This document shows positions 8,801 through 45,686 of a stretch of DNA of 45,686 nt, piece after piece; the first letter of the stretch is position 1; the number at the start of each line of letters is the position of its first letter. A program made the position numbers and the translations under genes. The notes beneath the pieces were generated by a model. It had not been told where the DNA came from. It made no database searches and worked only from the letters and a program-made list of their open reading frames with translations. Origin of the DNA: Nemertoderma westbladi (Eukaryota > Animalia > Xenacoelomorpha); NCBI GenBank assembly GCA_032718475.1, contig JAUCBJ010004540.1, positions 1-45,686 of the forward strand, read 5' to 3'.

Positions 8801-10016
8801 TGTTCGCGCTTTCAGACCTTTGGCAGTTTAACCCGCCAAATTAAGATGTCTTCTAGATATTAAATCGCTTTTTAGTCTATGACAAGTATTTGATTCACTA
8901 CACTAGTCGAAACCAATCTGTGCGCGATCATTCACCCGCTGGATATTCCCGGGAGATTGGGTTCGACGGCTTAATTTTTATTGCTATGTAAGCCTAATGT
9001 ATTATTCGACTGACAGTATTATATAATCTCTGACAATATTATTCACCTTCGGGAATATTAACAGTTCCTTTAGGACGTGGCGCTTTATCTATATAAACAG
9101 AGTTATGACTTAAACTACTCACAACGATATGGCTCAATTATAATTCACATATATGGCGCATTCTTTAGGAATTGCTTCTTTAACAGACTCACTCATACAC
9201 AATGCTGCACAATACTGCACACTAATCTGCCAATCTTCACTGATTTTAGTCACATATAAAAGGAACACAGACTGACTCATGTAGGGTCTATCAAATAACA
9301 TTAGATTCACTTCAAACCACTTTAACATAAGTCACAATCGTTATTGGTAACCTTTCTCTCTTACCTTCGGTATATCAAGAATATTGGGTTTTCGGGGTTA
9401 TTTCTCGTTATTCCAATATAATAATTCATCAACCAATATAATGAATAACCGACAACAAATAGCAGTATACAGTATTGATTGAGCAGGTAATTTTTAGCAG
9501 TTTCAGCAGTTATTAAAAGCCGTGTGTCAGCAGTGATTACGAAATTGCAGTGATTCCATGAATTAAAGGATATATGTCCTTATAATTAAGCCTACTAGTG
9601 TAAGACTAAAAACTGAAAACACGGAGGTGCCAAAAGCCGGTTCTTAGGCTCTGGGCAAAAACATAACACTGAACTACTGAGTTTCTGTATACACCTCCAA
9701 CACAGAGACAACAAACGCTCTGATTGGTCAACCTGAACAACGAGAGAACAAAGAAACAAAGAAACGTCGACGTGGCAATATCAGCTGCTAGCCGTCGTCA
9801 TGGTAGCGACACTGTTTTCAAGAGTATCGAGCTTTTACGTCACGGAATTACGGATTATGTCCTCTAAAGTACAAATACAGAAGAAATAGCTTTTATGTCC
9901 GCTAAAACACCAGTACAGCAAGGACACGGCCTTTTTATGCCTGGTAAACCAACTACAGAGTATTTTACGGGAAAAATAAGGAAAAATAACCGGACAATTC
10001 AGCAAAAGCTTTTACA
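8801..10016 (-). repeat. 5' LTR of BEL copy A (1216 bp, TGT...ACA)
   Basis: Sense starts TGTAAAAGCTT and ends GAAAGCGCGAACA; the same termini delimit 1213 bp in the sibling copy (40782-41994). Confidence 0.8.
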
Positions 10017-12300: not shown

Positions 12301-12314
12301 GTAGTGATTCTGGT

Positions 12315-17937: not shown

Positions 17938-17943
17938 ATTAAT

Positions 17944-19647: not shown

Positions 19648-19650
19648 AAG

Positions 19651-19717: not shown

Positions 19718-20691
19718 TAACAACGACCCCACTGAGAAGTTGAGAGAGGTCAATGCCCTCCACCCCAATCTTAGGTTTACACTTGAGTTGGAGGAACAGG
19801 GCCACTTGCCTTTCCTTGATTTGGTTGTGTCCCGTACTGACCACGCGCTTGCAACGGCATGGTACCGCATGCCTACAGATACCGGGCTCGTTCTTAATGC
19901 TACTGCATGTGCCCCGGAGTCATATAAACGGGGGGTAGTTCGTGGAATGTTTCATCGCATATTTAACGTCAGTAAGGGCGGGCGGGGATGGCTCTCAGCT
20001 CAATACTGCAATTGGGGAAGCTAATATTATTCTTAGCAATAACCAATATACAAATGCGATGATTCAGCGTGAGCTTACTGCCGTCCGTGCCGCTAGGGGG
20101 CGTCCTGGCAATAGTAGTGAGAGTGAGGTAACTGCGGTTACACCCTCCGAGGTCATTGACCAGGTGGAGCCGAAACCGTCGGAAAATCCCTGGCCCATTA
20201 TCTGTAAGTTTGAGTACCGCGGTCGGGCCACCGAACTTTTTGTTCGTAGGTTGCGTGGTATAGTACGTTGTTTATTCTTTATCTTGTCCAGCTTGTAAGG
20301 GGGAATATGTTGGACATACCATCCAGCACTTGTTTGAACGTGTTAGACAGCATCAAGACGGGTCGGCCAATGATGGTAGTGAACAAGGCAAGACAGTTCA
20401 CAACCATATCATGACACACTGCGGCGAGCCCAATACACAGTGGTTGACGGACTGGCGTGAGTTCTTCAAGCATTTCAAAGTAATTGCACGGCACCCATTG
20501 CGGCCTGTCCTGCAAAAACTTGAAATGTTTTATATACGCACGCGTCAGCTCGCCATTAACAAACAGAAATGTGATTGGCGCAAGTTTGATGTGCTGCTTC
20601 CCAGTGGTTAGACAGATACACTTCTACCTTGTTTCACTTTACCTTTCTTTCTCCCTTGGGAACTTCTATCTATTGTATCCTTTCTAGCACT

Positions 20692-20789
20692 AGCTACTTG
20701 AGAAAGCCCCCATTGGGGCGAAACCTACTGATCAGCTGACAGTTGTCAGCTGAGCACTGACTGCATGCAACGTCTAAAGGTCAGTTGCT
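20692..20789 (+). ncRNA. Variant hammerhead ribozyme motif of Penelope copy 2
   Basis: Core and stem II identical to 14722-14819; differences are confined to the stem III insert. Confidence 0.7.
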
Positions 20790-21491
20790 TTTTTACTGTT
20801 TTATTTGTACTGCATACCTACTGGGAAGGTTTTTACTTCACTGCTTGACAATTAAATAAAAGTACCACTATATTGCATTAACTCAAGCTTTTTAATTCAA
20901 AATTAGAATCTACAGAGACGAACTGAAATCTATTTGATAGGAAGATGGAGATTAGTTGTAGCGGAGTTACGCGTACGCCATAGCTCTCAAGCTTCGATAA
21001 TAGTATTTTATGGTTGATGGTTTCAAAGGCCTTTTTTAGTTCAATATATATTGCGTAAGTAGAGTTTTTACTATCTAATGCCTGGTGAATTTTTTCTGTT
21101 ACTGTTAGGAGCGCGTGTGAAGTGGATGTTTTTGACCGGAAACCAAATTGCGAATCAGATAAAATGCAGTATTGTGAGAAATAAGATAATAATTGTGAGT
21201 TAATAATTTGTTCATATAATTTTGAGAGTATGGGAAGTAAAGAAATTCGTCGGTAATTATTAGGAACTGCAGGATTATTGGTTTTATATGAGGGAATAAC
21301 TTTAGCTATGAATATATATCTTTAATTCCAACATAGGACAATAAAACAGTAAATTAAATAATATATGTATTTTAGTAGCACATTAATATAGTAAAATTAT
21401 TAATAAAGGTTAAAAGGGGTAACAACAAGGCGACTATTTATATGAATATCTTTCTAATAAAATTAGACGTAGAGGCGTATCTATTTCGTAG

Positions 21492-21725
21492 GTAATGGGC
21501 GGTCAAGACGCATCAGGAATAGCGCTATTTGTATGTCTGAAAGGCTGGGTGGTACTTTCTGACACTGGGAATAGTGGGTCCTTTCTGCGGCTGTATTGCC
21601 AAAGAGCCAGCAATGACAGCTATCTGAAGCTTTCCAGCAGTTCCCATGCGCGCAGTATTGTTGATGGCACCCATTGGAGATCAACATTGCACCAGCCCGT
21701 CGACGGAAGCCTGTTATGTTATCCA
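21492..21725 (+). other. Possible host exon (sushi/CCP-like Cys/Trp spacing); duplicated at 28161-28394
   Basis: GC-richer 234-nt open frame between tttcgtag| and |gtaagt; translation contains FVCLKGW...LYC...W...CYP. Weak. Confidence 0.25.
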
Positions 21726-22509
21726 GTAAGTAACCGAGGGTGGACTCTCTATAGCCGAGGGGCACTAGTATAATAACTAATAATCACGAACCCCGTCCTC
21801 TTATAATATACACCTAACTCTGCAGTAGTAGGTAGTAGTAGTAATAGTAGTTAGTAGTGGTAGTAAGTAGTTATAAAGGAGATGAGTTTAAACCAAAGTG
21901 ATAAAGTAACATTATTATATAACATAACCATATAGACAAAGTAGAATAAGATACGGATTCATAATTATTTTATCAAACTCATGTACTACTTACTTCAATG
22001 TGCCAATTGTAATAATAATTAATTAAACATATTATTCCGATTAATCTGCGTTTGGCCCTATAAGATATTATACTGATGTGTTTTATATCAATATATCCAT
22101 GCGAGTAAACAAGAAGTGAAGTAAATGTTTATTATTATAGTTTTAGAAATTGAATGATATACCCAAGATAGTGAAATAAATAATTTACCAGAAATTGCCA
22201 TTTGATCAGATATATTAAAGCGGAATCTTTACTATAATACCGTAATAGTATCAATTCACTCTGTTATACAATGTAAATATACTAAATCTATTTATAAATA
22301 TATTATGAGCCCTACATTGTATATTTCTCCTACAGGTAGACAATGTAATATGTTAAACTTGATATAATTTGGTATAATGTATAACATATTACAAATAAGA
22401 CTGAGGCAGCTAAACTATATTGCAAAGAAATCAAATATCCTAAAGTAATATACTAGACCCTCCCTCCACCCTATAAATAGTATTCACCACCTACCCCACC
22501 CACCACCCT

Positions 22510-24455
22510 TATTACTATATAATAATGAAAGATAGTACTGGCGCTCCGGTCACTCCGTTCCCTCCACTGGGGGGGTTAAGTTGTAGGTTTTGACACTATG
22601 CAAAATCCGAGCACAGCGTTAGAAGCACATTGGATAGGCGAACATTTCTTGCAGTGAAAGTATTTTCATATCTATTATAGTTTTCAAGATAGTCAGACAT
22701 GAGTAGCTAAAATTTGAAATTTTTTTGGTAAAGTCTGATTTCACCGGTACCTGTCATCCGAAATATGGATTGTGATATATCGTTAGATGCGGGTCCACTA
22801 ACTGTACATTCACATTTTTTCAAGAAAAAAATTCGATCTAGGGTTTTCGAAATATTTTCGAATTACCGGAAGCAGACTTTGGACGACCATATCTCCGGTA
22901 CCGGTAGGCCTATTGAGTCGAAATTTTTTTTAATCTACTTAGAACACTCCAGTGAATGTTTTTTAGTTTGAAAGTTTTGCCCCAAAATGCTCAGAAGTAA
23001 TTTCGAAAAAACTGATCATTTCGCGATCATGATCTTTTGACCCCCTAGAATTGAACTTTTTTATGGTCAAATTTTGGCTACCCCCCCTAATTCGAGGGTG
23101 AGGAATCTTTTTGTAATGTTAAGTTTTTTCATACGGTGAACTCACAGGACTTGGTCTTCGAAATAAAACCGAAAACATGATCTTTCCTGATCATGGCCTG
23201 ATCAAATCGCTTTTTGAAAATTTCGAAATGCTTAAAAGTTTCCCCTTCTTAATAGAAGTCGATTAGTAAAAAAAAAATCGGGGGTCTCAAACAAAGTTTT
23301 CGAGAAAATTGGAAAAAACCGAAAAATATGATCTTTAATGATCAGGTATCAGATCTCGAGAACCGGTTGACCGATCGAGCCAATTTTTTTTTAAATCAAC
23401 TCAGAATAGACCATTGAAAATTTCTTACAATGAATGTTTATTTAAAAAATGCTTAGATTCGATTTTAAATACACTGATCTTTTCGCGATCATGATCTTGA
23501 GTTTTGACCCACTAGACTTGAACTTTTTTATGCCAAAATTTTGGCTACCCCCCCTAATTCGAGGGTGAGGAATCTTTTTGTGATGTTAAGTTTTTCCATA
23601 CGGTGAACTCCCAGGACTTGGTCTTCGAAATAAAACCAAAAACACGATCTTTTCTGATCGCGGCCTGATCAAATCGCTTTTTGAAAATTTCGAAATGCTC
23701 AAAAGTTGCCCCTTCACCATAGAAGTCGATTCGTAAAAAAAAAATCGGGGGTCTCAAACAAAGTTTTCGAGAAAATTGGAAATAACCAAAAAATATGATC
23801 TTTAATGATCAGGTATCAGATCTCGAGAACCGGCTGTCCGATCGAGCCAATTTTTTTTTTATCGACTCAGGGCGGTGTTCTGAATGTTTCCTACAGTAAT
23901 TGTTTATATCCAAAATGCTTAGTTACGATTTTACGACATCCGATCTTTGCGCGATCATGATCTTGCGTTTTCACCAGGAAGAATTCACTTTTTTGAAAAT
24001 CTTTTAACGGGAATTATGACTAATGTGGGGTCGCTGAATCTTTTTGTAATGTTAAGTTTTTCGATTGGAGCAAGCCTTGAGTGTCCGATTGCTGATCAAA
24101 ACTGATCTTTGCTGATCATGGTCAAGATCATGATCTGATCGCTCCAAAAAAAAGGTTGTGAAGGTAAACCCATATGCTGCCTACAGTTTGGCGCCGGTCC
24201 CAAGTCCGTAGCATTAGCGGTTCTGGACTTATCTCCATAGCAACGAGGTTGCTAGGGAAGCTGACTTTTTGACTCAAATTGGCCCTAGCCGGAGAACCGT
24301 AGACTTTTGAAACGTAATGTATATGGGAAAAAGTCTTCTAGATAAATTTTGTGGGGGGGTCTAGGAACATCCTATTGTTAGTTTTCGCTTAGTTGCTGAG
24401 ATCCTCTCGTCCCCCAAATCCCAGGATTCTATAAAGGCATTCTGCTGGACTAGTT
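22510..24455. mobile_element. Non-autonomous element with ~467 bp internal tandem repeats (possibly Helitron/DINE-like); duplicated at ~29180-30657
   Basis: Repeats with period 467 (aaataaaacc at 23161 and 23628), recurring atctcgagaaccgg...ccgatcgagcc motifs, CTAG at ~24450. Boundaries and class are uncertain. Confidence 0.4.
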
Positions 24456-24539
24456 CCGTGGCCGGAATAGTGTTCGGTGTTCTGCGAACAGAGAACCTAA
24501 TCGGTTTAGGGCCCTGACCGTCTAGAACAACGGTGGTTT

Positions 24540-24705
24540 CCTGATAACTTTAGCTATTTTAAGGGAATTACGAAAAAAACCTCTTCTGATGGAGAGGTTT
24601 ATTAAATTGCTTTTTAAAAGTTTATTAAATGTGTATGGATAAAGATTAGCTGCCATTAGAAGAAGTTTGGAGGGGAATGGATCATTGGATGATGATTTGC
24701 AGTTA
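24540..24705 (-). pseudogene. CR1/L2-type LINE ORF2 fragment; duplicated at ~30742-30907
   Basis: KSSSNDPFPSKLL...LINLSIRRGFF..SLKIAKVI matches the start of a non-LTR RT domain. Confidence 0.55.
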
Positions 24706-24794
24706 ATATTTAGAAGTAAAAGTAAAGTAAAAGTAAATTTTCTTCGGCCGTTAGGACAGAGATTACGCACAAAGTCTGACGACTTATTTCCAAT

Positions 24795-24988
24795 GCGGTC
24801 CCCCCAGAACTTTATTCCCCAGAGGAAACTCTAGTACGCATTTAGCTACCACTTAAGGATGCAAGGCAGAGTGCCCTGGCTGGTCCCTTTAAAGCATTCG
24901 TGCCGAAACGAAAACTGCCCTGGCCCAGTTAAGGATCGAACCCACGACCTCAGGAGATGTGAATTCAATGCAACCACTACACCAAGGT
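24795..24988 (-). mobile_element. tRNA-derived SINE
   Basis: Minus strand: A box tggtgtagtggt (24973-24984), B box ggttcgatcc (24933-24942), then actctgccttgcatcctt...taaatgcgtac, resembling the Meta-type SINE central domain. Confidence 0.65.
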
Positions 24989-25400
24989 GGAATCTACGGT
25001 GTAAGTAAGTATTCTACCTCCACGGGTGTTGTTCCTATTAGCGAAAATGAATTCGGACGAATATAAGATTGAGAGATATGGCGCAGCGGAGAGCGTGTAG
25101 ACTTAGGTATTGTACTATCTAGTTTAGCGTGTAGGGTATAGTATAGCATTAGTTTAGTATAGTAGCGAAGTGTTCATTTAGTATGTTAGCTATTTCAGTA
25201 GGGTCCTTCGTAGCTCCCTCGTTTGGCCGCTTGCGGCATGAATGCTTTTCCCTCTACCCGGTTGTACAGCCTCGTAGATATTCGCTGACCTTATACTCTC
25301 CCCCTGTCATCAGGTGCCACGGTTCACTTAACTCACTGCGCGCATTTCCCACTGACACCTGCGGGGATTTATTCCCCCCCCCCCCCCCCCCCCTCTCGTG

Positions 25401-27564
25401 ACTGCTTTCAGAAGGATGGTGTCGCCATGGGTTCCCCATTGGGTCCCATACTCGCCAACATCTTTCTGTCACAGTTTGACGAGCAGATCACAGTGGGTAC
25501 CGAGATTAGTGAAAGGCAGGGACGGATTAAGGGGGGGGCAACAGGGGCAGCTGCAGGGGGCCCGTAAGTTGGAAGGGGCCCGCAAGTTGGGAGAAATTTA
25601 CCGAACATTATCTCACTGATAAAACAACCTCATTTATTTATTAATTTCTGGCTGTTCAATAAATATTTAGAGTATATCTCACATATAGCCTCACCATTCA
25701 GAGCACTGTGTCCCATAGAATGTTTAAAGTGTTTTAAAAAAATATTTTAAGTGTAATGTAATGCTTAAAGGAAAACGTTAGCAAAAAAACAAAATTAACC
25801 AAAAAAAAAAAATGTTAATAATAGTAAACTATTACTGTATTACAATTAACATTTAATTTACCTTTCAATTAATATTATCTGAAATCATTCACGAGTTCAG
25901 TAGGTTAGGAAATTGCTATTTTTAAGTAATTTTGTGTCTAATTTATTGATATACCAGTATATTATTCGTTCCTAAATATAGAATTGATGTCTTTTGGATG
26001 GTGTAATTTTAGGAAAAAATTAGTATTATTTAAATAATCAAGGACTATTATTCGATAAAAAAAAGTAAGCGGAAATCACCGCTTTTTTAACAGATATTCA
26101 ATTTAGCGAAATTCAACTATGTTTTTTTTTTTTTTTATTCAACTGTTACGTTTTTATATCGAATATATTGTTTTATTTGAAAAAAATATTACCAGCGTTA
26201 CTTATTTGTACCAACGGGGACCAAAATTTTTTGCAATTGGTTTTCGTCGGGGAGGGGGGGGGGGGGTAGGGGCCCGTAAGTTGCGACTGCCGGGGGCCCG
26301 AAAATCCATAATCCGTAAGCCGACACTGAACACGTCGTCAACATACCTTTCACTGAAAGGTATGTTGACGACGTGTTCAGTGTTGGTAACAACGACCCCA
26401 CTGAGAAGTTGAGAGAGGTCAATGCCCTCCACCCCAATCTTAGGTTTACACTTGAGTTGGAGGAACAGGGCCACTTGCCTTTCCTTGATTTGGTTGTGTC
26501 CCGTACTGACCACGCGCTTGCAACGGCATGGTACCGCATGCCTACAGATACCGGGCTCGTTCTTAATGCCACTGCATGTGCCCCGGAGTCATATAAACGG
26601 GGGGTAGTTCGTGGAATGTTTCATCGCATATTTAACGTCAGTAAGGGCGGGCGGGGATGGCTCTCAGCTCAATACTGCAATTGGGGAAGCTAATATTATT
26701 CTTAGCAATAACCAATATACAAATGCGATGATTCAGCGTGAGCTTACTGCCGTCCGTGCCGCTAGGGGGCGTCCTGGCAATAGTAGTGAGAGTGAGGTAA
26801 CTGCGGTTACACCCTCCGAGGTCATTGACCAGGTGGAGCCGAAACCGTCGGAAAATCCCTGGCCCATTATCTGTAAGTTTGAGTACCGCGGTCGGGCCAC
26901 CGAACTTTTTGTTCGTAGGTTGCGTGGTATAGTACGTTGTTTATTCTTTATCTTGTCCAGCTTGTAAGGGGGAATATGTTGGACATACCATCCAGCACTT
27001 GTTTGAACGTGTTAGACAGCATCAAGACGGGTCGGCCAATGATGGTAGTGAACAAGGCAAGACAGTTCACAACCATATCATGACACACTGCGGCGAGCCC
27101 AATACACAGTGGTTGACGGACTGGCGTGAGTTCTTCAAGCATTTCAAAGTAATTGCACGGCACCCATTGCGGCCTGTCCTGCAAAAACTTGAAATGTTTT
27201 ATATACGCACGCGTCAGCTCGCCATTAACAAACAGAAATGTGATTGGCGCAAGTTTGATGTGCTGCTTCCCAGTGGTTAGACAGATACACTTCTACCTTG
27301 TTTCACTTTACCTTTCTTTCTCCCTTGGGAACTTCTATCTATTGTATCCTTTCTAGCACTAGCTACTTGAGAAAGCCCCCATTGGGGCGAAACCTACTGA
27401 TCAGCTGACAGTTGTCAGCTGAGCACTGACTGCATGCAACGTCTAAAGGTCAGTTGCTTTTTTACTGTTTTATTTGTACTGCATACCTACTGGGAAGGTT
27501 TTTACTTCACTGCTTGACAATTAAATAAAAGTACCACTATATTGCATTAACTCAAGCTTTTTAA
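25401..27564 (+). mobile_element. Penelope-like copy 3 (duplicated 3' half of copy 2, including MITE 25517-26316 and palindrome 26320-26386)
   Basis: Identical ORF pieces at 26373..26693, 26611..26967 and 26999..27280. Confidence 0.93.
27361..27458 (+). ncRNA. Variant hammerhead ribozyme motif, duplicated copy
   Basis: Identical to 20692-20789. Confidence 0.7.
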
Positions 27565-30500
27565 TTCAAAATTAGAATCTACAGAGACGAACTGAAATCT
27601 ATTTGATAGGAAGATGGAGATTAGTTGTAGCGGAGTTACGCGTACGCCATAGCTCTCAAGCTTCGATAATAGTATTTTATGGTTGATGGTTTCAAAGGCC
27701 TTTTTTAGTTCAATATATATTGCGTAAGTAGAGTTTTTACTATCTAATGCCTGGTGAATTTTTTCTGTTACTGTTAGGAGCGCGTGTGAAGTGGATGTTT
27801 TTGACCGGAAACCAAATTGCGAATCAGATAAAATGCAGTATTGTGAGAAATAAGATAATAATTGTGAGTTAATAATTTGTTCATATAATTTTGAGAGTAT
27901 GGGAAGTAAAGAAATTCGTCGGTAATTATTAGGAACTGCAGGATTATTGGTTTTATATGAGGGAATAACTTTAGCTATGAATATATATCTTTAATTCCAA
28001 CATTGGACAATAAAACAGTAAATTAAATAATATATGTATTTTAGTAGCACATTAATATAGTAAAATTATTAATAAAGGTTAAAAGGGGTAACAACAAGGC
28101 GACTATTTATATGAATATCTTTCTAATAAAATTAGACGTAGAGGCGTATCTATTTCGTAGGTAATGGGCGGTCAAGACGCATCAGGAATAGCGCTATTTG
28201 TATGTCTGAAAGGCTGGGTGGTACTTTCTGACACTGGGAATAGTGGGTCCTTTCTGCGGCTGTATTGCCAAAGAGCCAGCAATGACAGCTATCTGAAGCT
28301 TTCCAGCAGTTCCCATGCGCGCAGTATTGTTGATGGCACCCATTGGAGATCAACATTGCACCAGCCCGTCGACGGAAGCCTGTTATGTTATCCAGTAAGT
28401 AACCGAGGGTGGACTCTCTATAGCCGAGGGGCACTAGTATAATAACTAATAATCACGAACCCCGTCCTCTTATAATATACACCTAACTCTGCAGTAGTAG
28501 GTAGTAGTAGTAATAGTAGTTAGTAGTGGTAGTAAGTAGTTATAAAGGAGATGAGTTTAAACCAAAGTGATAAAGTAACATTATTATATAACATAACCAT
28601 ATAGACAAAGTAGAATAAGATACGGATTCATAATTATTTTATCAAACTCATGTACTACTTACTTCAATGTGCCAATTGTAATAATAATTAATTAAACATA
28701 TTATTCCGATTAATCTGCGTTTGGCCCTATAAGATATTATACTGATGTGTTTTATATCAATATATCCATGCGAGTAAACAAGAAGTGAAGTAAATGTTTA
28801 TTATTATAGTTTTAGAAATTGAATGATATACCCAAGATAGTGAAATAAATAATTTACCAGAAATTGCCATTTGATCAGATATATTAAAGCGGAATCTTTA
28901 CTATAATACCGTAATAGTATCAATTCACTCTGTTATACAATGTAAATATACTAAATCTATTTATAAATATATTATGAGCCCTACATTGTATATTTCTCCT
29001 ACAGGTAGACAATGTAATATGTTAAACTTGATATAATTTGGTATAATGTATAACATATTACAAATAAGACTGAGGCAGCTAAACTATATTGCAAAGAAAT
29101 CAAATATCCTAAAGTAATATACTAGACCCTCCCTCCACCCTATAAATAGTATTCACCACCTACCCCACCCACCACCCTTATTACTATATAATAATGAAAG
29201 ATAGTACTGGCGCTCCGGTCACTCCGTTCCCTCCACTGGGGGGGTTAAGTTGTAGGTTTTGACACTATGCAAAATCCGAGCACAGCGTTAGAAGCACATT
29301 GGATAGGCGAACATTTCTTGCAGTGAAAGTATTTTCATATCTATTATAGTTTTCAAGATAGTCAGACATGAGTAGCTAAAATTTGAAATTTTTTTGGTAA
29401 AGTCTGATTTCACCGGTACCTGTCATCCGAAATATGGATTGTGATATATCGTTAGATGCGGGTCCACTAACTGTACATTCACATTTTTTCAAGAAAAAAA
29501 TTCGATCTAGGGTTTTCGAAATATTTTCGAATTACCGGAAGCAGACTTTGGACGACCATATCTCCGGTACCGGTAGGCCTATTGAGTCGAAATTTTTTTT
29601 AATCTACTTAGAACACTCCAGTGAATGTTTTTTAGTTTGAAAGTTTTGCCCCAAAATGCTCAGAAGTAATTTCGAAAAAACTGATCATTTCGCGATCATG
29701 ATCTTTTGACCCCCTAGAATTGAACTTTTTTATGGTCAAATTTTGGCTACCCCCCCTAATTCGAGGGTGAGGAATCTTTTTGTAATGTTAAGTTTTTTCA
29801 TACGGTGAACTCACAGGACTTGGTCTTCGAAATAAAACCGAAAACATGATCTTTCCTGATCATGGCCTGATCAAATCGCTTTTTGAAAATTTCGAAATGC
29901 TTAAAAGTTTCCCCTTCTTAATAGAAGTCGATTCGTAAAAAAAAAATCGGGGGTCTCAAACAAAGTTTTCGAGAAAATTGGAAAAAACCGAAAAATATGA
30001 TCTTTAATGATCAGGTATCAGATCTCGAGAACCGGCTGTCCGATCGAGCCAATTTTTTTTTTATCGACTCAGGGCGGTGTTCTGAATGTTTCCTACAGTA
30101 ATTGTTTATATCCAAAATGCTTAGTTACGATTTTACGACATCCGATCTTTGCGCGATCATGATCTTGCGTTTTCACCAGGAAGAATTCACTTTTTTGAAA
30201 ATCTTTTAACGGGAATTATGACTAATGTGGGGTCGCTGAATCTTTTTGTAATGTTAAGTTTTTCGATTGGAGCAAGCCTTGAGTGTCCGATTGCTGATCA
30301 AAACTGATCTTTGCTGATCATGGTCAAGATCATGATCTGATCGCTCCAAAAAAAAGGTTGTGAAGGTAAACCCATATGCTGCCTACAGTTTGGCGCCGGT
30401 CCCAAGTCCGTAGCATTAGCGGTTCTGGACTTATCTCCATAGCAACGAGGTTGCTAGGGAAGCTGACTTTTTGACTCAAATTGGCCCTAGCCGGAGAACC

Positions 30501-31689: not shown

Positions 31690-33008
31690 CACAAGAAATG
31701 AAAACAAATAAGTTGGTGCCAGTTCCCAAGAAGGGCAACCTAACACTCTATGGTTCTTTTCGGGGAATCTCATTGATCTCGATTGCTGCAAAGCTATACA
31801 ATAGAATTCTATTAAATCGCATCAGGGATCCCATTGAGAGACTGTTATCTTTGTTGACTTCTTCAAGGCCTTTGATTCAGTCTTCCGCTCACGTATGTTC
31901 AGCATACTTTCATTATATGGGATTCCTGATGAAATTATTGCAGCAATCAGATCAGTATACGAAGGTTCGACAACATTTGTGCCTACTGTTGACGGTGACA
32001 CAGAACCATTTGAAGTGTTATGGGGCGTCCTCCAGGGAGACACACTTGCACCATTCTTGTTCATAATTGTGGTTGACTATGTTCTACGCATGTCCTTAGA
32101 TCATCATAATGATGATGGGGTGATGATAACTCCACCTACTGGCTCCAGAAGTCGAGGAAATCCTGCCAAGTACCTAACTGATCTAGACTTTGCTGATGAC
32201 TTAGGAGTACTCTCAGAATCACGAGAGGGAGCCCAACGGCTCCTCAGCTCATTAGAACATGCTGCTTCTAGTGTTTGTCTTTTTATTAACTCCAGAAAGA
32301 CCAAAATTTTGACAGTTAACTTTGAAAGTTCTCAGCAAGTCTCTGATCGGATGAGCATAAGCTCAAAAGATGGTATGCTTGAGCATGTGGATGACTTCTG
32401 TTACCTGGGATCATGGATCCCGAAGTCAGGTGAGGACCTTCGAATATGTAAGGGAAAGGCATGGGCAGCCTTGAATAGGCTTTCCAGGATTTGGAAGTCA
32501 CCGAGAATTAATCGGAAACTTAAGGTCCGGTTATTTAGAGCAGCAGTATTTCCAGTACTCCTCTATGGGAGACCATGCTGGGCTCTAACTGCTGAGGACA
32601 CCAAATCTCTGAATGGCACATTCACAAGAATGCTACGCCGGGTTCATTGTGTCAAGTACAATGCACACATCTCCAACGAGACACGATATAACATTGGAGG
32701 TGTCTCATTGGTTCCGCCAAGCTTGACACTAGAACAAAATCGCCTCCGCTTTGCAGGAAATTGCAGAACATTGCAGGACCAGCCAGTGCATAATCTTGTA
32801 CTTTGGCAGCCTCATGGAGTGAATAAGCATGGTGGACAGCCCATGACTTTCTTGAGACGCATCTTAAAGGACACTGGCCTTGAAGATGCGGATGATCTAG
32901 CAAATGTCATGGGTGATACGGAGTTGTGGCGGTGCAATTTTGTCGATAAGCAGGCACAGCTTTCTTAAAAATGCAGCTGCAATGCAGCATGCCGATCCTA
33001 GTAGTAGT
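31690..33008 (+). mobile_element. RTE-clade LINE, 5'-truncated RT with an internal deletion and (TAG)n tail
   Basis: VPVPKKG, FRGISLISIAAKLYNRILLNRI, FVDFFKAFDSV, GVLQGDTLAPFLF, TDLDFADD, DFCYLGS, LLYG, RLRFAG; tagtagtagt at 32999-33008. Confidence 0.92.
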
Positions 33009-37379: not shown

Positions 37380-39107
37380 TCAATTTTGATTGCTTTGCTT
37401 CAATATTGTTGCATCTCTAACGGCTTTTACCCAATCGGCTTTGAGTTCAGGTGTATCGCATCTGAATATCAGTACACCAACTCCACTGTGGGATATCTTG
37501 AATACTAAGGGCGCCAGACTTGAGTCAACTTCAGGCACACTTTCTTCCACTGTATATCCTAGCAACGGTCTGTCATCCTGCGCCCTGGGGTCTCCACGGT
37601 TCTTAAGCTTGTACAATACCCAGCCATGCAGCTCAAACCAGTACTCTTTCCATACTCCTCTTCTTTTCAGTAGCTTCAGTGATCCACTCATTTCTACCTT
37701 ATCCCGTTCTGAAACCACCAACGTTTTCGCATCCGAGGCCTCTTTCACTTCCTTGAATTTCTTGCTGAAAAGTCCCTGGAGACATTCAATATCATCACCA
37801 ATATTATCAGTAATAATTGGCTGATACTTTTCAGGGAATTCTCCCCTTCCGATGACATCATACAGTTTCTTGTGGCAGTAACTACAAACGCGGCAAACTT
37901 TCCAGGATTTATAGAGAATAGGCGCTTCAAAATCTGAACAAGTACCACAGACAACCTTGCCGCATATACGGCAGTGATGGCGTCGGTTGAATCTCGTGAA
38001 ATTTTGCAGTTTACACAGCTGACACATGCTCGTTTGGTTGTCTTCTATCCAATGAGGTGCTACTGCTCCCGGGAATTCGTTTGTATCGCTCTTTTTCATG
38101 GCATTCCCATCTACGCTGAATGAATCTAGCTTCTCCCAAAGGGTAGATTTTGCACATTCGATGGTGGATATCCACTCATCTCTTTCTTTCCGAGTTTCAA
38201 CAAAAAAATCATATGCTTCAGGCAATCCCGGCCCTGTAATAGAAAACCAATTACCAGTGTCCAGGTGCATCGGTGGGGCAGTAACTATGACTTGTTCAAT
38301 TGGAATGTCTATACTAATACTTGTGTCATTTTTTATGCAAAGAAGTTTATCAGAAAAAAGATATAAATCTCTTGGTTGATTTTCCTTTAAATTTGTTGGG
38401 TATCTTTTCAGTACACGTCCATATTTAATAATGAATCTTCCTGGTGTAAATATATTTACCTTTCTGTTAGATTTCTCTAGTTTTTTTTGCAGTTCCAAGA
38501 GTTTATTTGAATTTACATCTTCTGCCTCTATCTTGACGTGGAGATCATTAATTCCACTTATAATGAGTAAAGTAGCTTTTACATTCTCTTTTTCATCCTT
38601 TTCACTTTCAGACAAGACTTTTTGGTAATCTTTAAGCAGTTGCTCGTGCTTGTGTACCCTCCATATTGGTTCCTCCAGCCTTCGTCTCAGGTCCATTTTC
38701 CGATCCCTCAAATCGTCCTTATTACCACCTCCTCTAATATATTTTTTTTCAAACTCCACCACAAATGCCTTAAACTGTTTATTTTGTTTCATTGCATTGT
38801 CAAATACTTTTATTGCATATTGAGATCTGTTATTGATAAAATTCGCAGTCATTTTAAGCATAAAGATGGCATATTTTCTATATACATCCGCTATCTTAGG
38901 AACTATATGCCAGTTATCAGCTCTCTCCTGGAGTTCTTTTGATAATCCCTCACTTAGTTTTAAAAGATTCTCGAACAGATTCATGATTATGTTCAACTGA
39001 CTTTTTTCAATAATCGGATTTCCATTTATTCTCCTGGCATCAATTTTCTCCTTAAATGTGTTTATTAGGCGCAAATTATTTAGATATTCTAATTCAGTGA
39101 TTGCCAT
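37380..39107 (-). CDS. FGD: FGD/frabin-family protein: RhoGEF (DH)-PH-FYVE-PH in one uninterrupted ORF; the true start may lie further upstream
   Basis: DH: TELEY...L, LFENL, LEEP.WR...LLKDY; PH ending ERDEWISTI; FYVE WIED/CQLC/RRHHCRICG.VVC..CS/RVC..C; second PH with WKEYWF, LY, PLLGY.V, W..A. Frame stays open 32 codons upstream of the ATG. Confidence 0.92.
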   Translation of the reverse strand: MAITELEYLNNLRLINTFKEKIDARRINGNPIIEKSQLNIIMNLFENLLKLSEGLSKELQERADNWHIVPKIADVYRKYAIFMLKMTANFINNRSQYAIKVFDNAMKQNKQFKAFVVEFEKKYIRGGGNKDDLRDRKMDLRRRLEEPIWRVHKHEQLLKDYQKVLSESEKDEKENVKATLLIISGINDLHVKIEAEDVNSNKLLELQKKLEKSNRKVNIFTPGRFIIKYGRVLKRYPTNLKENQPRDLYLFSDKLLCIKNDTSISIDIPIEQVIVTAPPMHLDTGNWFSITGPGLPEAYDFFVETRKERDEWISTIECAKSTLWEKLDSFSVDGNAMKKSDTNEFPGAVAPHWIEDNQTSMCQLCKLQNFTRFNRRHHCRICGKVVCGTCSDFEAPILYKSWKVCRVCSYCHKKLYDVIGRGEFPEKYQPIITDNIGDDIECLQGLFSKKFKEVKEASDAKTLVVSERDKVEMSGSLKLLKRRGVWKEYWFELHGWVLYKLKNRGDPRAQDDRPLLGYTVEESVPEVDSSLAPLVFKISHSGVGVLIFRCDTPELKADWVKAVRDATILKQSNQN

Positions 39108-40269: not shown

Positions 40270-40780
40270 TGCGTCTAGGTACTAGTCATACCTGAGGACG
40301 ATGACCTTCAACAGGTGAAAAATGATGACGAAAAATTCGAAGTAGTAACTAATGCAATTGGCCACTCACGTCTACAATCATCATTTAGGCGACTAGGGAA
40401 GAAAAGGGAGGGAGGCTGTCAGCCTCTTTTAGTCTCCCTAGGAGAGCTGGCACCCGACCTATTGAAGGATATGCCGGGGCTAGATGGTTTCTACATAAAA
40501 CCTGATACACACCCTGCAGTCCGTTTGGAGATTGAGAGATTTGGCGGGGCTAGATGGTTTCTACATAAAACCTGATACACACCCTGCAGTCCGTTTGGAG
40601 ATTGAGAGATTTGGCGGGGCTAGATGGTTTCTACATAAAACCTGATACACACCCTGCAGTCCGTTTGGAATTTAAGAGATTGAGAGATTTGGCGGCTTTA
40701 GAACAGAAAAGACCAGAGAATATTTAATGCATCGTAGAATATGACCATAAATCGAGATCTGTTAGGATTGATGGTAAAAC
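40270..40780 (+). pseudogene. Degenerate LINE ORF1-like fragment, abutting the BEL copy D LTR
   Basis: RRLGK...QPLLV...GFYIKPD.HPAVR resembles the RRM-type ORF1 of CR1/L2 LINEs. Confidence 0.45.
40476..40695. repeat. 70 bp tandem repeat x~3
   Basis: tagatggtttctacataaaa at 40481, 40551 and 40621. Confidence 0.95.
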
Positions 40781-40781: not shown

Positions 40782-41994
40782 TGTAAAAGCTTCTGTGGGA
40801 TGTAACTGGCCCTTCGCCCCGCAACCCAGTTTTTCCCCCATACGCTAAAATACTCTGAAACCTACTGTAAAGGTTTTTCTGGGATATGACTGATTTGTTT
40901 TCTTTGCTAACCAGTTCCCCCCTCCAAAGCGTTGGAATCCTTTAGGAGGGATCTGAGCTGTTCGATTGGCCAGCCGGCTTGGGAAGGTTGCCCCAGTTAC
41001 CCATAGCCCTGCGTTGAGTTAGTTCTGATTTCGACCAATCCCGAGCTACTGAACTGAAATTATCCTGTCTCACTGCTGATTACATGTGTTGAACGGGATT
41101 CTTGGAAAATAAGAGAGAGAGTTGTTACTTGAGAGAGAGTTGTTACTTTTGTTGTTATTGCGGTCTAAGCCAGAAACACCGGCATTTTGTAACCAATACT
41201 GCTGTACCGTAAACTGCTTGAATTATCGAAAGTATAAACTGTTACCTAACTTAACGCATCTAACTAATCTCACGAATCGAATATCACCTAACTCATTAAT
41301 CATATTGTTTGTACTGTTATTTTACCGTCAGTTATTAATTGTAAATATTTGTTGATGGAAATATTGCTATTTGGATAATACGGATAAATCACCCAATTCC
41401 CAATTTTCTTGATAACACTACAGGTTAGAGAGACCGGCTATATATAACAATTGCGATTTATATTAATGTGGTGTGTATTGAATCCAATGTTATTTAGCAG
41501 ACCCTACGCGAGTCAATTACTGCTCTCTTTATGTGTGATCAAATATACTGACTGTCGGCAGAATAGTGTGTATGATTGTGATTGGTAACAAAGTATTTCC
41601 TAAAGAATACGTTTTATACTTTAATCAGCAGCAGTATCGTTGCGTTTAGTATAAGTCTTAGTTCTGTTTAAATAGGTAAAGCGCCACGTCCTAAAGGAAC
41701 TGTTAATATTTCCCGAAAGCCAATAATATCTGTCAGAGATTAATTATTAACGATCTATCGAATAATACATTAGGTATACACTACAACCTTACACTGTAAT
41801 AATACAATTCAAGCATCCGAATTCAGTCTCCCGGGTGTAGATCCATCGGGTGAATGATCGCGCATGGGCTGACTTCGGCTAATGTTTTGCGTATTAGCAT
41901 AAATTATTGTCGTATGCTAAAGTGGTTTTAATTAACGAAAAGACATATAAATTTTGGCAGGTTAAACTGCTAAAGGTCTTCGAAAGCGCGAACA
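40782..41994 (+). repeat. 5' LTR of BEL copy D (1213 bp)
   Basis: TGTAAAAGCTT...GAAAGCGCGAACA; same termini and near-equal length to the copy A LTR. Confidence 0.8.
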
Positions 41995-42007
41995 GTAACA
42001 GTTTATA
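41995..42007 (+). promoter_or_regulatory. Non-tRNA primer-binding site of BEL copy D (self-priming candidate)
   Basis: gtaacagtttata is the reverse complement of tataaactgttac at 41233-41245 in its own LTR. Confidence 0.75.
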
Positions 42008-42383
42008 ATCTTATTGCAGTAAGCAATAAGGTTGCAAGTGTAGGCATTAAATACAGTTTAATACTGTTCTGGCGAACAGTAACGGTTTACAATCTTATTG
42101 CAGTAGGCAATAAGGTTGCAAAATACCGTAGTGACTGGTAAAACTGAACCGGTACTTTGTAGGTCAGTAGGCCTAACTGTCATCACCGGTACCGGTACTG
42201 CTGTACAAGTACATTAGTATTATTCGATTTTGATTATTGTATACCGGTAGGTCTCGATATTAAATCGGGCGACGCCCTGGTTTTTATTGGGATTTTACTT
42301 AGGTCTATTTCTGTCAGTTTTATTTACTAGTAGGCTAATATTGAGCAGAAGGCGTGTGACCCTGCTCAGATTGTTCAGATAAT

Positions 42384-42930
42384 TGTAGGCTGAGCTGCTG
42401 TCTGACTGTGGTTGGGTTTGGAGAGATTACGGCGTGTGTAGAGTTTGTCTGATAAAGTGCCGTTAGTAAGTTGGGGCAGTCAACACTGTAAGGTCAATCC
42501 CCTCTTAAAGAGTAAGTCGTACTACCGTGTTAGCACGCATACTAACTAACAGTTTCAGAGTCTGCATATACTGTAGTTTATTTAGGCTTGATCGTAGTCT
42601 GCCAGTGTTTTAGCCTGTGTTTGTTTGTGTGGTCTGTTCAGGTACCGTAATAGTTATTACTCAAATATTTTGTAGGCTGGATTGTTGTCTAGCTATTTTT
42701 GGGTCTGAAGGGATTGCTGCGTGTGTAGAGTTGGTCTGATCAAGCGCCGTTAGTAAGTTGGGGCAGTCAACACTGTAAGGTCAATCCCCTCTTAAAGAGT
42801 AAGTCGTACTACCGTGTTAGCACGCATACTAACTAACAGTTTCAGAATCTGCACATACAGTAGTTTGTTTAGGCTTGATAGTAGTCCGCCAGCGTTTGGT
42901 TTGTATTTGTTTGAGTATTCTGTACGGGTA
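42384..42930. repeat. Two ~287 bp tandem repeats in the leader of copy D
   Basis: tgtaggctg at 42384 and 42671 with long identical cores. Confidence 0.9.
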
Positions 42931-44253: not shown

Positions 44254-45686
44254 ATGTCTGACACTCAGCAAAACCTGTCGGACAGTCTGATCGAGACCAC
44301 TATCTGTGATTCAGATAGGAGAGTGGAGCGAATAATAGAGAAGTTCGGCTCACCTCCTACTGTAAAAAAGGTCATCCCTCCAGTAGTATCAGACCCTAGG
44401 CTAGTCCACCATAGGTCCATCATAGGCACTCGGGCACAGGTAAAACGGGACCAAGAGGCAGCTGTCCTATCGCAGCAACATCTTGGTCAAGAACCTACTT
44501 CCCAGAGACCTGATAGCTCCAGCAGTTCAGATACTGTAGAGTTGACTCCCGAACATGGAGTGCAATGGCTGATACAGTCTACTCGGACCCCCTTCTTACT
44601 CTTCCTGCTGCAGTACTAACTACTATACTCATTGCGGTGGAGGAACATCAAGCCGACTGGGCGAAGAATAAGCAAGCGACCCAAGATGATTACGCGGGAT
44701 ACGCCAGGGAAGAATTGAGATCTATTGTTGAATCACAATGGAACTTTCCCGGACTCGGACTTCCGTTTGATATGTCCGAGGCTACTTGGGAAGATATACA
44801 CAGGATGGGAGTGGCTCAAGATACAATGGATCCAGCTGTTTGGAAGAGGTCGGCAGCAGGATATGTGCAGGGATTCTTCGAATCCTTGGAGCGATTGGAA
44901 GGGCAGCTGTTTCGACAACCTCACGGACCTCAAGAGCAGGAAGAACTGCTATATCAAATACGCGAAAGAACCCTACGCATTCGACTAATCCTCTCAGCCT
45001 TTGAGGAAACTTCCAAAAGAAGACAGGACACGTCGCTGCAGGTTGCTGTCAAAACTTGGCTACATCGAGTAGATCGCAAAGTACAGGAAACAGCCCAGTG
45101 GAAATCCCAGCTGGCTGAGAGATCAATCTATGAGGAACCAACTGATGTCACCGAACAAACTGATGTCACCCTTGCTCAAGAGGAAAGCGAAGAGGCCGCC
45201 GAGAAACCGCGAACTAGAGACGCTATCGACATTTATTTGTCCGACTATCAGCGATTCCTAGGAGACGAAGAGTTGAGGAGACGGCTACATGGACTTTCCC
45301 CTAATAGTGAAGGAACCAAGCTTATATTGGACGCGATCGATACCGAAATGTTAGCTGCAAACCAAGCTGAATGTGATGAAAAACTCCGCCTCACTAGAGT
45401 CCGAGAAGAACAAATAAAGAAAAGAAGGATAGAGGAACAAAAGGCGGCGGATATGGCGGCGGTTATGGCAGATGCAGAAGCCGAAAGAAAAGCAAAAGCA
45501 GCAGAAGCAGAAGCCGAAAGAAAGAAAAAGGCGGCGGAAGTAGAAGCCGAAAGAAAGAAAAAGGCGGCGGAAGCAGAAGCCGAAAGAAAGGCAAAAGCGG
45601 CAGATGCAGAAGCCGAAAGAAAGGCAGCGAAGGCAGTGGCAGAAGTAGAAAGGAGAGCATCTGAGCAGACTACCCAACTGGAGTTG
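44254..45686 (+). pseudogene. gag: gag N-terminus of copy D with a frameshift at ~44560; the second frame is open from 44565 to the window end
   Basis: First ~102 aa match copy A gag; homology resumes in another frame (MADTVYSDPLL..., ESQWNFPG, DPAVWKRSAAGY, RDAIDIYLSDYQRFLGD). Confidence 0.9.

What the first reader, a model, noticed from the sequence alone, without database searches (positions are those of the whole stretch)
41817..41994. Covarying, pseudoknotted RNA domain at the U5 end of the LTR (also 8801-8967, minus)
Seen in both siblings with compensatory or wobble changes. Outer stem: gtcgaa/ttcgac + ccaatct/agattgg (A) vs ccgaa/ttcgg + tcagtct/gggctga (D). Inner stem: cccg/cggg. An invariant 14-nt linker tgaatgatcgcgca carries tcgcgc (41858-41863), complementary to gcgcga (41986-41991), which ends 3 nt before the LTR terminus and gives a long-range pseudoknot. 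A further hairpin tttggcgg/ctgccaaa (A) vs tttggcag/ctgctaaa (D) is enclosed by agac/gtct. It lies right beside the PBS, so it could scaffold primer annealing and cleavage (compare Tf1 and retroviral U5-IR and U5-leader stems) or be a new catalytic or IRES-like motif. I could not match it to a known ribozyme consensus.
Basis: partly seen in the sequence, partly recalled or inferred. Interest (0 to 1): 0.72.

Follow-up and report, generated by a model that had tools for sequence, protein, structure and literature searches.

The report
Conserved RNA hairpins at LTR end
The last 180 bases of the long terminal repeat of an animal BEL/Pao retrotransposon carry hairpins that two diverged copies keep through matching base changes; they likely help organise the RNA for reverse transcription, while the proposed pseudoknot is untested and a catalytic role is unsupported, so this is an ordinary kind of retroelement signal.

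Summary
The window holds two outward-facing, truncated copies of one BEL/Pao LTR retrotransposon: A on the minus strand and D on the plus strand. The flagged stretch is the 3' (U5-side) end of their 5' LTRs.

- **Supported:** a 12-bp bulged outer stem keeps all pairs in both copies, with 3 double (compensatory) and 2 wobble changes. No helix like it appeared in 0 of 150 alignment-wide shuffles.
- **Supported more weakly:** a second hairpin near the LTR end keeps pairing through 2 wobble changes. G·U pairs and sense-versus-antisense energies point to the sense RNA.
- **Not shown:** the "pseudoknot" is a real 6-bp complementarity, but both strands are invariant CG-alternating runs, so there is no covariation. 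A competing nested long-range helix uses the same bases and excludes half of the outer stem.
- **Corrected:** the "invariant" linker is polymorphic in the family (A>G at one position in 45% of depth in run X1).
- **Not found:** no Rfam family or ribozyme match, no canonical tRNA-type PBS next to the LTR, and no Tf1-like self-primer.

Best reading: a U5 structural element of the genomic RNA, likely acting like a retroviral U5-IR stem. The main rival is a polyadenylation module. Interest is low to moderate.

The parts
41306..41994 (+). 5' LTR of copy D (TGT...ACA), about 689 bp
   Evidence: Homology with copy A begins near 41298-41306. Contig depth in X1 rises from 10,086 to 332,806 to 770,678 across 41250-41351, and falls from 960,954 to 276,669 after 41997.
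8801..9471 (-). 5' LTR of copy A, about 671 bp
   Evidence: Alignment with D. X1 depth falls from 1,017,983 (8802-8809) to 36,547 (8778-8785). Loose ends with low agreement (0.56-0.67) at 8797-8801 indicate many different flanks, as expected for 3' or solo LTR ends.
41817..41878 (+). SL1 of copy D. Outer stem 41817-41829 / 41866-41878 with a 1x1 mismatch at 41822/41873. Inner hairpin 41830-41850. Single-stranded 3' bulge (linker) 41851-41865.
   Evidence: Outer-stem pair probability 0.5-0.9 in D.
8906..8967 (-). SL1 of copy A. Outer stem 8967-8954 / 8919-8906. Inner hairpin 8953-8935. Linker 8934-8920.
   Evidence: Three pairs differ from D on both sides: columns 13/74 C-G>U-A, 19/68 U-A>C-G, 22/65 G-C>A-U.
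41858..41863 (+). 5' strand (tcgcgc) of the proposed pseudoknot or long-range helix. In copy A: 8927-8922.
   Evidence: Invariant in both copies. No variant at >=5% in A-like contigs.
41986..41991 (+). 3' strand (gcgcga) of the proposed pseudoknot, inside the 15-nt LTR tail 41980-41994. In copy A: 8809-8804.
   Evidence: This is also the expected integrase-recognition end of the LTR (inference).
41941..41979 (+). SL2 of copy D. agac 41941-41944 / gtct 41976-41979 enclose hairpin 41953-41960 / 41967-41974. In copy A: 8851-8814.
   Evidence: Pair probability 0.95-0.99 in both copies. 2 of 8 hairpin pairs change by wobble. 70-nt window z-scores are -2.2 to -3.2 in D.
41767..41885 (+). Possible basal helix P0: 41767-41773 with 41879-41885. 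It encloses the AATAAT/AATAAA-like hexamer and SL1.
Evidence: A 7-bp helix kept in both copies with one wobble change.
41995..42030 (+). Post-LTR region: a variable 15-18 nt where a PBS is expected, then conserved hairpin SL3 at 42010-42030. In copy A: 8800-8783 and 8782-8762.
   Evidence: The SL3 closing pair is C-G in D and U-A in A. 70-nt window z-scores are -3.6 to -4.3.

Best explanation
The flagged stretch is the U5-side end of the 5' LTR of a BEL/Pao retrotransposon. Its sense strand carries a long bulged hairpin (SL1) kept by three compensatory double changes between two diverged copies, plus a second hairpin (SL2) 15-20 nt before the LTR end. These would fold in the genomic RNA and likely act as a U5-IR-like cis element that holds the end of U5 and the adjoining primer region in a fixed shape for the start of minus-strand DNA synthesis.

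**Shown**
- The element type, the position in the LTR and the helices.
- The compensatory changes in the outer stem.
- The preference for the sense strand.

**Inferred**
- That the RNA actually folds this way.
- That the function lies in reverse transcription.

The 6-bp tcgcgc/gcgcga contact is possible. It is sterically an H-type pseudoknot with a duplex energy of -9.4 kcal/mol. But it is untested by covariation.
For: - **Element type:** the ORFs carry DUF1759 (Pao gag; E 1.8e-11), Peptidase_A17 (E 2.7e-36) and Integrase_H2C2.
- **LTR end:** placed at 41994/8801 by the depth drop and by heterogeneous loose ends.
- **Outer stem pairing:** 12 of 12 pairs are kept in both copies, 3 by double change and 2 by wobble. 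Slid-partner controls pair only 20-49% of cells, against 98.6% for the model.
- **Outer stem versus chance:** the chance that 8 random transitions keep all 12 pairs is 0.05, and 0.009 with >=3 doubles. 0 of 150 alignment-wide shuffles gave a helix of >=12 bp with >=3 doubles.
- **Sense strand:** D has U·G where A has U-A. The U5 sense strand folds better than the antisense (D -51.9 vs -38.5; A -48.6 vs -42.7 kcal/mol).
- **Family variation** (A-like contigs; 3006, 692, 19 and 13 contigs laid from X1, X3, X4 and X6): by my count from the table, 4 of the 20 variable places at >=5% fall in the 74 paired columns (40% of 183). The two commonest of these are wobble-compatible: column 62 A>G (35% in X1) and column 155 G>A (6-25% in X1, X3 and X4, none in X6).
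- **Precedent:** structured U5/PBS-adjacent RNA is required in Tf1 (U5-IR-like; cited in the reference lists read) and in Ty1 (pseudoknot adjacent to the PBS; PMC3592414, passages read).
Against: - Only two full sequences exist, so formal covariation tests have no power (58 of 500 shuffles reach the observed score).
- SL1 is not thermodynamically exceptional. 70-nt window z-scores are -1.35 (D) and -1.66 (A). The whole-domain z is -2.6 for D but only -1.5 for A.
- With the LTR tail included, nested folding of copy A gives the outer stem a probability of about 0.01 and prefers a long-range helix. RNAalifold also drops the outer stem.
- Two lower-frequency family variants would break outer-stem pairs if unaccompanied: column 65 U>C at 9-10% in X1 and X3 (20-26% in X4 and X6), and column 73 G>A at about 5%. 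Linkage to their partner columns could not be read.
- No recognisable PBS lies next to the LTR, so the link to priming is by position only.
- The transcription start and poly(A) site are unmapped, so 'U5' is positional.
Confidence: 0.45

Rival explanations
1. Polyadenylation module. The hexamer just upstream, a conserved CA in the 5' strand of SL1 and the G/U-rich invariant linker would be the poly(A) signal, cleavage site and downstream element. The hairpin would modulate use of that site, so the R/U5 border lies inside SL1.
For: - A has AATAAA at 8982-8977, 9 nt before the stem. D has AATAAT at the homologous 41798-41803.
- C-A at columns 20-21 is invariant, about 18 nt downstream.
- The most strongly shared part of SL1 in the family is the inner 3' strand plus linker, which has the highest depth at 8930-8945.
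- P0 encloses the hexamer.
Against: - D's hexamer is non-canonical.
- No RNA ends are available: no RNA holder was listed and no poly(A)-tailed loose ends were seen.
- A downstream-element role would not require the compensatory changes in the outer stem.
- It does not explain SL2.
Confidence: 0.2
2. Nested long-range closure instead of a pseudoknot. Linker plus SL1 3' strand (columns 54-66; D 41858-41870) pairs with gg-tct...gcgcga (columns 171-187; D 41975-41991). This alternates with the outer stem as a two-state switch of U5.
For: - RNAalifold's consensus picks it.
- In copy A its pairs have probability 0.9-0.99.
- Core-helix energies are nearly equal in A: -29.6 against -30.8 kcal/mol.
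- 4 of its pairs change on one side and stay paired.
- D-like contigs mostly read A at 41982 (87% in X1, 82% in X3, 96% in X4, 100% in X6) opposite U at column 61. A-type has C61/G178 with no variant at >=5%. That is a possible C-G/U-A covariation, but linkage was not shown.
Against: - In D the extension would contain 4 G·U in 6 pairs. Its probability is 0.00 and its core energy -22.9 against -29.9 kcal/mol.
- It has no double change between the two window copies.
- It cannot explain the three double changes of the outer stem.
Confidence: 0.12
3. No RNA function. The invariant blocks reflect DNA-level constraints: the integrase-recognition end of the LTR and promoter or terminator sites in a CpG-rich U5. 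The stems are leftovers or chance.
For: - The pseudoknot strands are CG-alternating runs, which are complementary to each other by nature. There are 35 CGCGC/GCGCG 5-mers in the 45.7-kb window, and U5 has CpG observed/expected of 1.4-1.56 against 0.84 for the window.
- gcgcga lies within 9 nt of the LTR terminus.
- SL1's thermodynamic z-scores are weak.
- There are only two sequences.
Against: - 0 of 150 shuffles reproduce the 12-bp helix with 3 doubles.
- The G·U pairs make the stems strand-specific.
- The arms are not perfect DNA inverted repeats, so homogenisation at the DNA level is unlikely.
Confidence: 0.15
4. The invariant CGG|GTGAAT at the start of the linker is a 5' splice donor (or U1-binding site) that removes the 1.7-2.6 kb leader.
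For: By my reading of the sequence against the recalled consensus MAG|GTRAGT, 7 of 9 positions match. The leader before gag is unusually long.
Against: None of the six joints listed among the laid contigs starts near 41847-41850, including in the run guessed to be RNA (table 5). Donors inside U5 are unusual.
Confidence: 0.05
5. A self-cleaving ribozyme or an IRES-like element.
For: A pseudoknot-like topology is possible. Ribozymes are known in other retroelements (recalled: hammerheads in retrozymes and Penelope-like elements, HDV-like in non-LTR elements).
Against: - 0 Rfam matches at gathering score in the window.
- At E<=10 there were only 3 chance rows (RT-16, mir-743, CRISPR-DR22; E 3.8-9.5) over the two 501-nt stretches.
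- The CUGA present in D (41869-41872) is UUGG in A.
- The strand order is stem 5', hairpin, PK 5', stem 3', hairpins, PK 3'. This differs from the HDV-like order (recalled).
- The gag ORF start is 1.7-2.6 kb away.
Confidence: 0.03

Closest known systems
Retroviral U5-IR stem-loop and U5-leader stem; the U5-IR-like structure of Tf1 (Lin & Levin 1998, seen only as a reference-list entry)
   Same: - An inverted repeat inside U5, close to the LTR/primer-site junction.
- Kept as an RNA helix rather than as sequence.
- Expected to act in cis on initiation of reverse transcription.
   Different: - SL1 is far larger: 12 bp plus a 6-bp inner hairpin plus a 15-nt bulge.
- It lies about 115 nt from the LTR end. 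Only SL2 is PBS-proximal.
- No PBS of either the tRNA or the self-priming type could be recognised.
- Function is untested.
Ty1 5' pseudoknot adjacent to the PBS (PMC3592414; abstract and passages read)
   Same: A long-range pairing near the primer site in the 5' end of an LTR-retrotransposon RNA. In Ty1 it is supported by compensatory mutants that restore retrotransposition.
   Different: The Ty1 pseudoknot lies in R-U5/GAG and has experimental support. Here the crossing helix is 6 invariant base pairs with no covariation and a nested competitor.
HIV-1-type poly(A) hairpin (recalled)
   Same: A hairpin at the R/U5 border that includes or abuts the poly(A) hexamer.
   Different: The hexamer here lies outside the stem (in the loop of the weak P0 helix), and the poly(A) site is unmapped.
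Canonical BEL/Pao 5' end, e.g. Achilles, with a PBS complementary to 18 nt of the tRNA-Tyr 3' end directly after a TG...CA LTR (PMC4580426; passages read)
   Same: The same superfamily and LTR termini (TGT...ACA), with the LTR followed by a leader.
   Different: Here the 16-18 nt after the LTR differ between copies. A has no TGG within 100 nt. D has one TGG, at 42070, inside its own duplication.

Membership tests
BEL/Pao (Belpaoviridae) LTR retrotransposon (the host element) | Pao-type aspartic peptidase, Pao gag domain and integrase, flanked by a TG...CA LTR | tested here: met
   Peptidase_A17 E 2.7e-36, DUF1759 E 1.8e-11, Integrase_H2C2 E 3.5e-07. LTR TGT...ACA. The 3' LTR lies outside the window.
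Any Rfam family (including hammerhead, HDV-like, twister, pistol, hatchet, hairpin ribozymes) | Covariance-model score at or above the family's gathering score | tested here: not met
   0 matches at gathering score in the window. At E<=10 there were 3 rows, all E 3.8-9.5 and 32-53 bits below gathering.
U5-IR-type stem-loop | Inverted repeat within U5 near the PBS, maintained by covariation | tested here: inconclusive
   Position in the U5-side end of the LTR is met. Covariation is met for the SL1 outer stem (3 doubles) but is wobble-only for the PBS-proximal SL2. The R/U5 border and the PBS are not identified.
U5-IR-type stem-loop | Required for initiation of minus-strand synthesis | not testable with these tools
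   Needs experiments.
H-type RNA pseudoknot | Two crossing helices, each supported independently | tested here: inconclusive
   - Helix 1 (outer stem) is supported.
- Helix 2 (columns 54-59/182-187) is 6 of 6 invariant, with no variant at >=5% in family contigs.
- It is unusual against column shuffles (69 of 1000; 2 of 1000 when >=5 G-C pairs are required). That null ignores the self-complementary nature of CG runs.
- A nested alternative exists.
Tf1/sushi-type self-priming | The sequence directly after the LTR is complementary to the first ~11 nt of the transcript (start of R) | tested here: not met
   The best exact complement in D is 8 nt (41698). A has nothing longer than 6 nt and nothing at a homologous place. 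The best duplexes lie at different LTR positions in A and D. The transcription start is unmapped.
tRNA-primed PBS (3' CCA end) | TGG... complementary to a tRNA 3' end within a few nt of the LTR | tested here: not met
   No TGG in the 100 nt after the LTR in A. One in D, at 42070, inside a duplication of the LTR end. Host tRNAs were not available, so internal or half-tRNA priming was not tested.

The most novel reading that the evidence does not exclude
This very abundant BEL/Pao family has given up the canonical tRNA 3'-end primer site. The structured U5 domain (SL1 with its invariant bulge contacting the LTR tail) together with the conserved hairpin SL3 about 16-18 nt past the LTR would form a priming platform for a non-tRNA or internal-tRNA primer. 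That mechanism has not been described for BEL/Pao elements; two full-text searches listed no paper whose title or abstract start addresses it.
Probability: 0.1. Interest if true: 0.65.

Novelty: new member of a known kind. Interest (0 to 1): 0.3.

Why it matters
Cis-acting RNA structures at the U5/PBS junction are well studied in retroviruses, Tf1 and Ty1. The searches made here listed no paper on them for BEL/Pao elements (mostly listings and abstract starts seen). A covarying U5 hairpin in a very high-copy BEL/Pao family gives a concrete target for structure probing. Together with the missing canonical primer site, it raises a testable question about how this family primes reverse transcription. 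It does not change any general picture: structured U5 regions are expected in LTR retroelements.

Tried and rejected
- **Whole genome:** not held for this window.
- **More copies of the family:**
  - The 17-mer scan of metagenome contigs gave 54 loci. All are chance matches, with no similarity beyond about 20-45 nt around the motif.
  - A pattern with 26 specified bases gave 0 hits in genome contigs and viral contigs.
  - gag-based locus searches gave 0 relatives in viral contigs and genome contigs.
  - The window holds only the two copies.
- **Earlier findings of the scan:** nothing by place, sequence or words.
- **RNA evidence:** no RNA holder is listed. Run X6 is only guessed to be RNA, so nothing on expression, ends or splicing can be concluded.
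- **Contig laying:** the contigs are mostly 60-110 nt, so changes at the two sides of a stem could not be linked. Variant types seen only in loose-end cells were read but not used as sequences.
- **Self-priming:** no complementarity shared by both copies.
- **Thermodynamic scan:** SL1 windows are not significant on their own.
- **tRNA complementarity of the post-LTR region:** not testable, because the window has no tRNA gene and no host tRNA set is on hand.
- **Covariance model from two sequences:** not built, because there was nothing related to search.

Full report
**What the window is**

The window is eukaryotic, and no whole genome is held for it. Its two ends carry two copies of one LTR retrotransposon facing outwards.

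- **Copy A** lies on the minus strand. Its LTR spans about 9471-8801. It is followed by a 1504-aa ORF with DUF1759, then an 838-aa ORF with Peptidase_A17 and an integrase zinc-binding domain.
- **Copy D** lies on the plus strand. Its LTR spans about 41306-41994, and an ORF begins at 44565.
- These domains define a BEL/Pao element, a group reported only from metazoans (PMC3601003, passage read).
- Both copies run off the window, so no 3' LTR is available.

The LTR limits rest on three observations.

- A/D homology starts near 41298-41306.
- Contig depth in public runs of the same organism label rises across 41284-41317 and drops after 41997.
- For copy A, depth falls from 1,017,983 to 36,547 between 8809 and 8778. 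Loose ends of low agreement (0.56-0.67) sit at 8797-8801, as expected where many different flanks meet LTR ends.

The flagged stretch is therefore the last about 180 nt of a 5' LTR. It is 'U5' by position; the transcription start and poly(A) site are not mapped.

**Check of the observation**

Column numbers below refer to the 195-column alignment of the two copies, which has 137 invariant columns.

| Helix | Columns | Result |
|---|---|---|
| Outer stem | 13-25 with 62-74 | 12 of 12 pairs standard in both copies around a 1x1 mismatch |
| Extra outer pair | 12/75 | forms only in A |
| Inner hairpin | 26-31 with 39-46 | 6 of 6 pairs invariant; loop and bulge differ in sequence and length |
| Long-range helix | 54-59 with 182-187 | 6 of 6 invariant |
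| agac/gtct | 137-140 with 172-175 | 4 of 4 invariant |
| Second hairpin | 149-156 with 163-170 | 6 of 8 invariant, 2 changed by wobble |

Three outer-stem pairs differ on both sides between D and A:
- columns 13/74: C-G in D, U-A in A;
- columns 19/68: U-A in D, C-G in A;
- columns 22/65: G-C in D, A-U in A.

Two more outer-stem pairs change by wobble (U·G in D, U-A in A).

So covariation in the strict sense exists only in the outer stem.

**Is it more than chance?**

- With two sequences, the pair-shuffle control cannot be significant (58 of 500 shuffles reach the observed score). The slid-partner control is clear: 98.6% of cells pair, against 20-49% for slides of 1-3 columns.
- In a simulation, 8 random transitions in the 24 stem positions keep all pairs in 5% of trials, and do so with at least 3 double changes in 0.9%.
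- Alignment-wide (1058 columns), a helix of >=12 bp with one 1x1 interruption and >=3 double changes appeared in 0 of 150 column shuffles. Any such helix of >=12 bp appeared in 3 of 150. These shuffles do not keep local composition, so the p-values are rough.
- Thermodynamics are less impressive. Domain z-scores are -2.6 for D (1 of 200 shuffles as good) and -1.5 for A (13 of 200; that fold omitted the last 7 nt of the LTR). 70-nt windows over SL1 give only -1.35 and -1.66, while SL2 reaches -2.2 to -3.2 in D.
- The G·U pairs make the helices sense-strand specific, and the sense strand folds better than the antisense.

**The pseudoknot**

- The tcgcgc/gcgcga pairing is real as complementarity. 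It is the only all-Watson-Crick helix of >=6 bp kept in both copies.
- It is rare under column shuffles: 69 of 1000, or 2 of 1000 if >=5 G-C pairs are required.
- It is strong (duplex -9.4 kcal/mol) and sterically an acceptable H-type arrangement.
- Against it, both strands are invariant and both are alternating C/G runs, which are complementary to each other by nature. There are 35 such 5-mers in the window, and U5 is CpG-rich.
- The 3' strand also lies within 9 nt of the LTR terminus, where integrase recognition alone would conserve it (inference).
- The same six pairs can extend into a nested helix, columns 61-66 with 171-178. This helix uses the 3' strand of the outer stem and so excludes its distal half.
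  - RNAalifold chooses this fold.
  - The partition function of copy A gives it 0.9-0.99, but that of copy D gives 0.00.
  - D-like contigs mostly carry A at 41982 (87% of depth in X1, 82% in X3, 96% in X4, 100% in X6) opposite U at column 61. A-type has C/G there. This hints at one covarying pair in the nested helix, but linkage was not shown.
- I rate the long-range contact, in either form, as possible and not demonstrated.

**Variation in the family**

Laying contigs of four runs on copy A placed 3006, 692, 19 and 13 contigs (identity >=80%, differences listed from 5% of depth). This gave 21 rows at 20 places. By my count, 4 of the 20 places fall in the 74 paired columns of the model, and none falls in the 12 pseudoknot columns.

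- The two commonest stem variants keep pairing. Column 62 A>G is at 35% in X1, 15% in X3, 73% in X4 and 0 in X6. Column 155 G>A is at 6%, 12%, 25% and 0.
- Two rarer ones would break a pair if alone. Column 65 U>C is at 9%, 11%, 20% and 26%. Column 73 G>A is at 5.5%, 4.8%, 0 and 0.
- The contigs are too short to link these to their partner columns.
- The 'invariant' linker varies. Column 53 A>G is at 45%, 32%, 97% and 4%. One X4 contig end shows a further change at the first pseudoknot position (table 7).
- Laying on copy D (7176, 1506, 118 and 59 contigs) listed no variant at >=10% in 41816-41880 among the rows shown; 41 rows were not shown.

**What it is not**

- No Rfam family matches at gathering score.
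- At E<=10, two 501-nt scans gave three chance rows with E 3.8-9.5. No known ribozyme class is supported, and the hammerhead-like CUGA of D is not kept in A.
- An IRES role is unlikely, because the gag start is far away.

**The primer site**

A BEL/Pao element such as Achilles has a tRNA-Tyr PBS directly after its LTR (PMC4580426, passages read). Here the picture is different.

- The 16-18 nt after the LTR differ between A and D.
- There is no TGG within 100 nt in A and one TGG in D, inside a duplication.
- No complement to the LTR is shared by both copies, which argues against Tf1-like self-priming.
- A conserved hairpin (SL3) follows, with a compensatory closing pair.

**Mechanism**

- **Best reading (0.45):** SL1 and SL2 are cis-acting structures of the genomic RNA in U5, working like U5-IR-type stems to shape the U5 end and primer region for initiation of minus-strand synthesis. 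The fold is inferred from two sequences. The function is inferred from position and from precedents in Tf1 and Ty1 (PMC3592414 passages; Lin & Levin 1998 seen only as a reference entry).
- **Rival, polyadenylation module (0.2):** an AATAAA/AATAAT hexamer lies 9-13 nt before SL1, followed by a conserved CA in its 5' strand and a G/U-rich invariant linker.
- **Rival, two-state nested switch (0.12).**
- **Rival, no RNA function (0.15).**
- **Rival, splice donor in the linker (0.05).**
- **Rival, ribozyme or IRES (0.03).**

**Novelty and verdict**

Structured U5 regions are a known kind, so this would be a new member in a superfamily where they have not been studied. The literature searches listed no such report for BEL/Pao; I saw mostly listings and abstract starts, plus passages of four papers. 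Interest is 0.3.

The boldest reading the data allow is a non-canonical priming platform in a BEL/Pao family that lacks a tRNA 3'-end PBS (probability about 0.1).

Noticed in passing
41995-42009 (+) and 8800-8783 (-): The 16-18 nt directly after the LTR, where a PBS is expected, differ strongly between the two copies and do not start with TGG. A has no TGG in the next 100 nt. D has one, at 42070, inside its own duplication. No shared self-priming complement was found.
   Followed up: partly
42010-42030 (+), 42094-42114 (+), 8782-8762 (-): A conserved 8-bp hairpin (SL3) just past the variable post-LTR stretch. Its closing pair is C-G in D and U-A in A. It has the strongest local folding z-scores of the region (-3.6 to -4.3).
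   Followed up: partly
41988-42037 and 42072-42121 (+): Copy D carries a tandem duplication (94% identical, 84-nt period) of the last 7 nt of the LTR plus the post-LTR stretch and SL3. Contigs in X1, X3 and X4 join across it (skips of 89-96 nt), so other copies lack it, as copy A does.
   Followed up: partly
41767-41773 with 41879-41885 (+); 9000-8994 with 8906-8900 (-): A further 7-bp helix kept in both copies (one wobble change). It would close a larger domain holding the AATAAA-like hexamer and SL1.
   Followed up: no
41306 (+) and 9471 (-): Homology between the copies and contig depth put the LTR start near 41306/9471 (LTRs of about 689 and 671 bp). This is about 180 nt upstream of the TG at 41488 that could be taken for the start.
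   Followed up: yes
41250-42250 and 8770-9000: The family is extremely abundant in the DNA runs of the same organism label (thousands of short contigs laid). Depth drops more than tenfold just past the LTR end, suggesting many solo LTRs or very variable internal starts. Near-identical contigs also occur under a second organism label (X6).
   Followed up: partly
7885-8430 (-) and 42383-42897 (+); 8580-8760 and 42130-42200: The leader between the LTR and gag is 1.7-2.6 kb. It holds a roughly 288-nt tandem repeat and many copies of an ACCGGTAC-type palindrome.
   Followed up: no
5656-5882 (-) and 45434-45686 (+): The long gag ORF begins with Ala/Glu/Lys-rich 27-33-nt tandem repeats, a low-complexity and probably coiled-coil N-terminal region.
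   Followed up: no
37380-39107 (-): An uninterrupted 575-aa ORF with RhoGEF, FYVE and PH domains (FGD-like host gene or exon) lies between the two retrotransposon copies.
   Followed up: no
12300-30200 and 31895-32968: Other repeats fill the middle of the window: units about 6.67 kb apart with 100%-identical 300-nt segments (18735-19034 = 25401-25700), and an ORF with an RVT_1 reverse-transcriptase domain.
   Followed up: no
40461-40681 (+): Three 70-nt tandem repeats (91-100% identical) lie about 600 nt upstream of the LTR of copy D.
   Followed up: no
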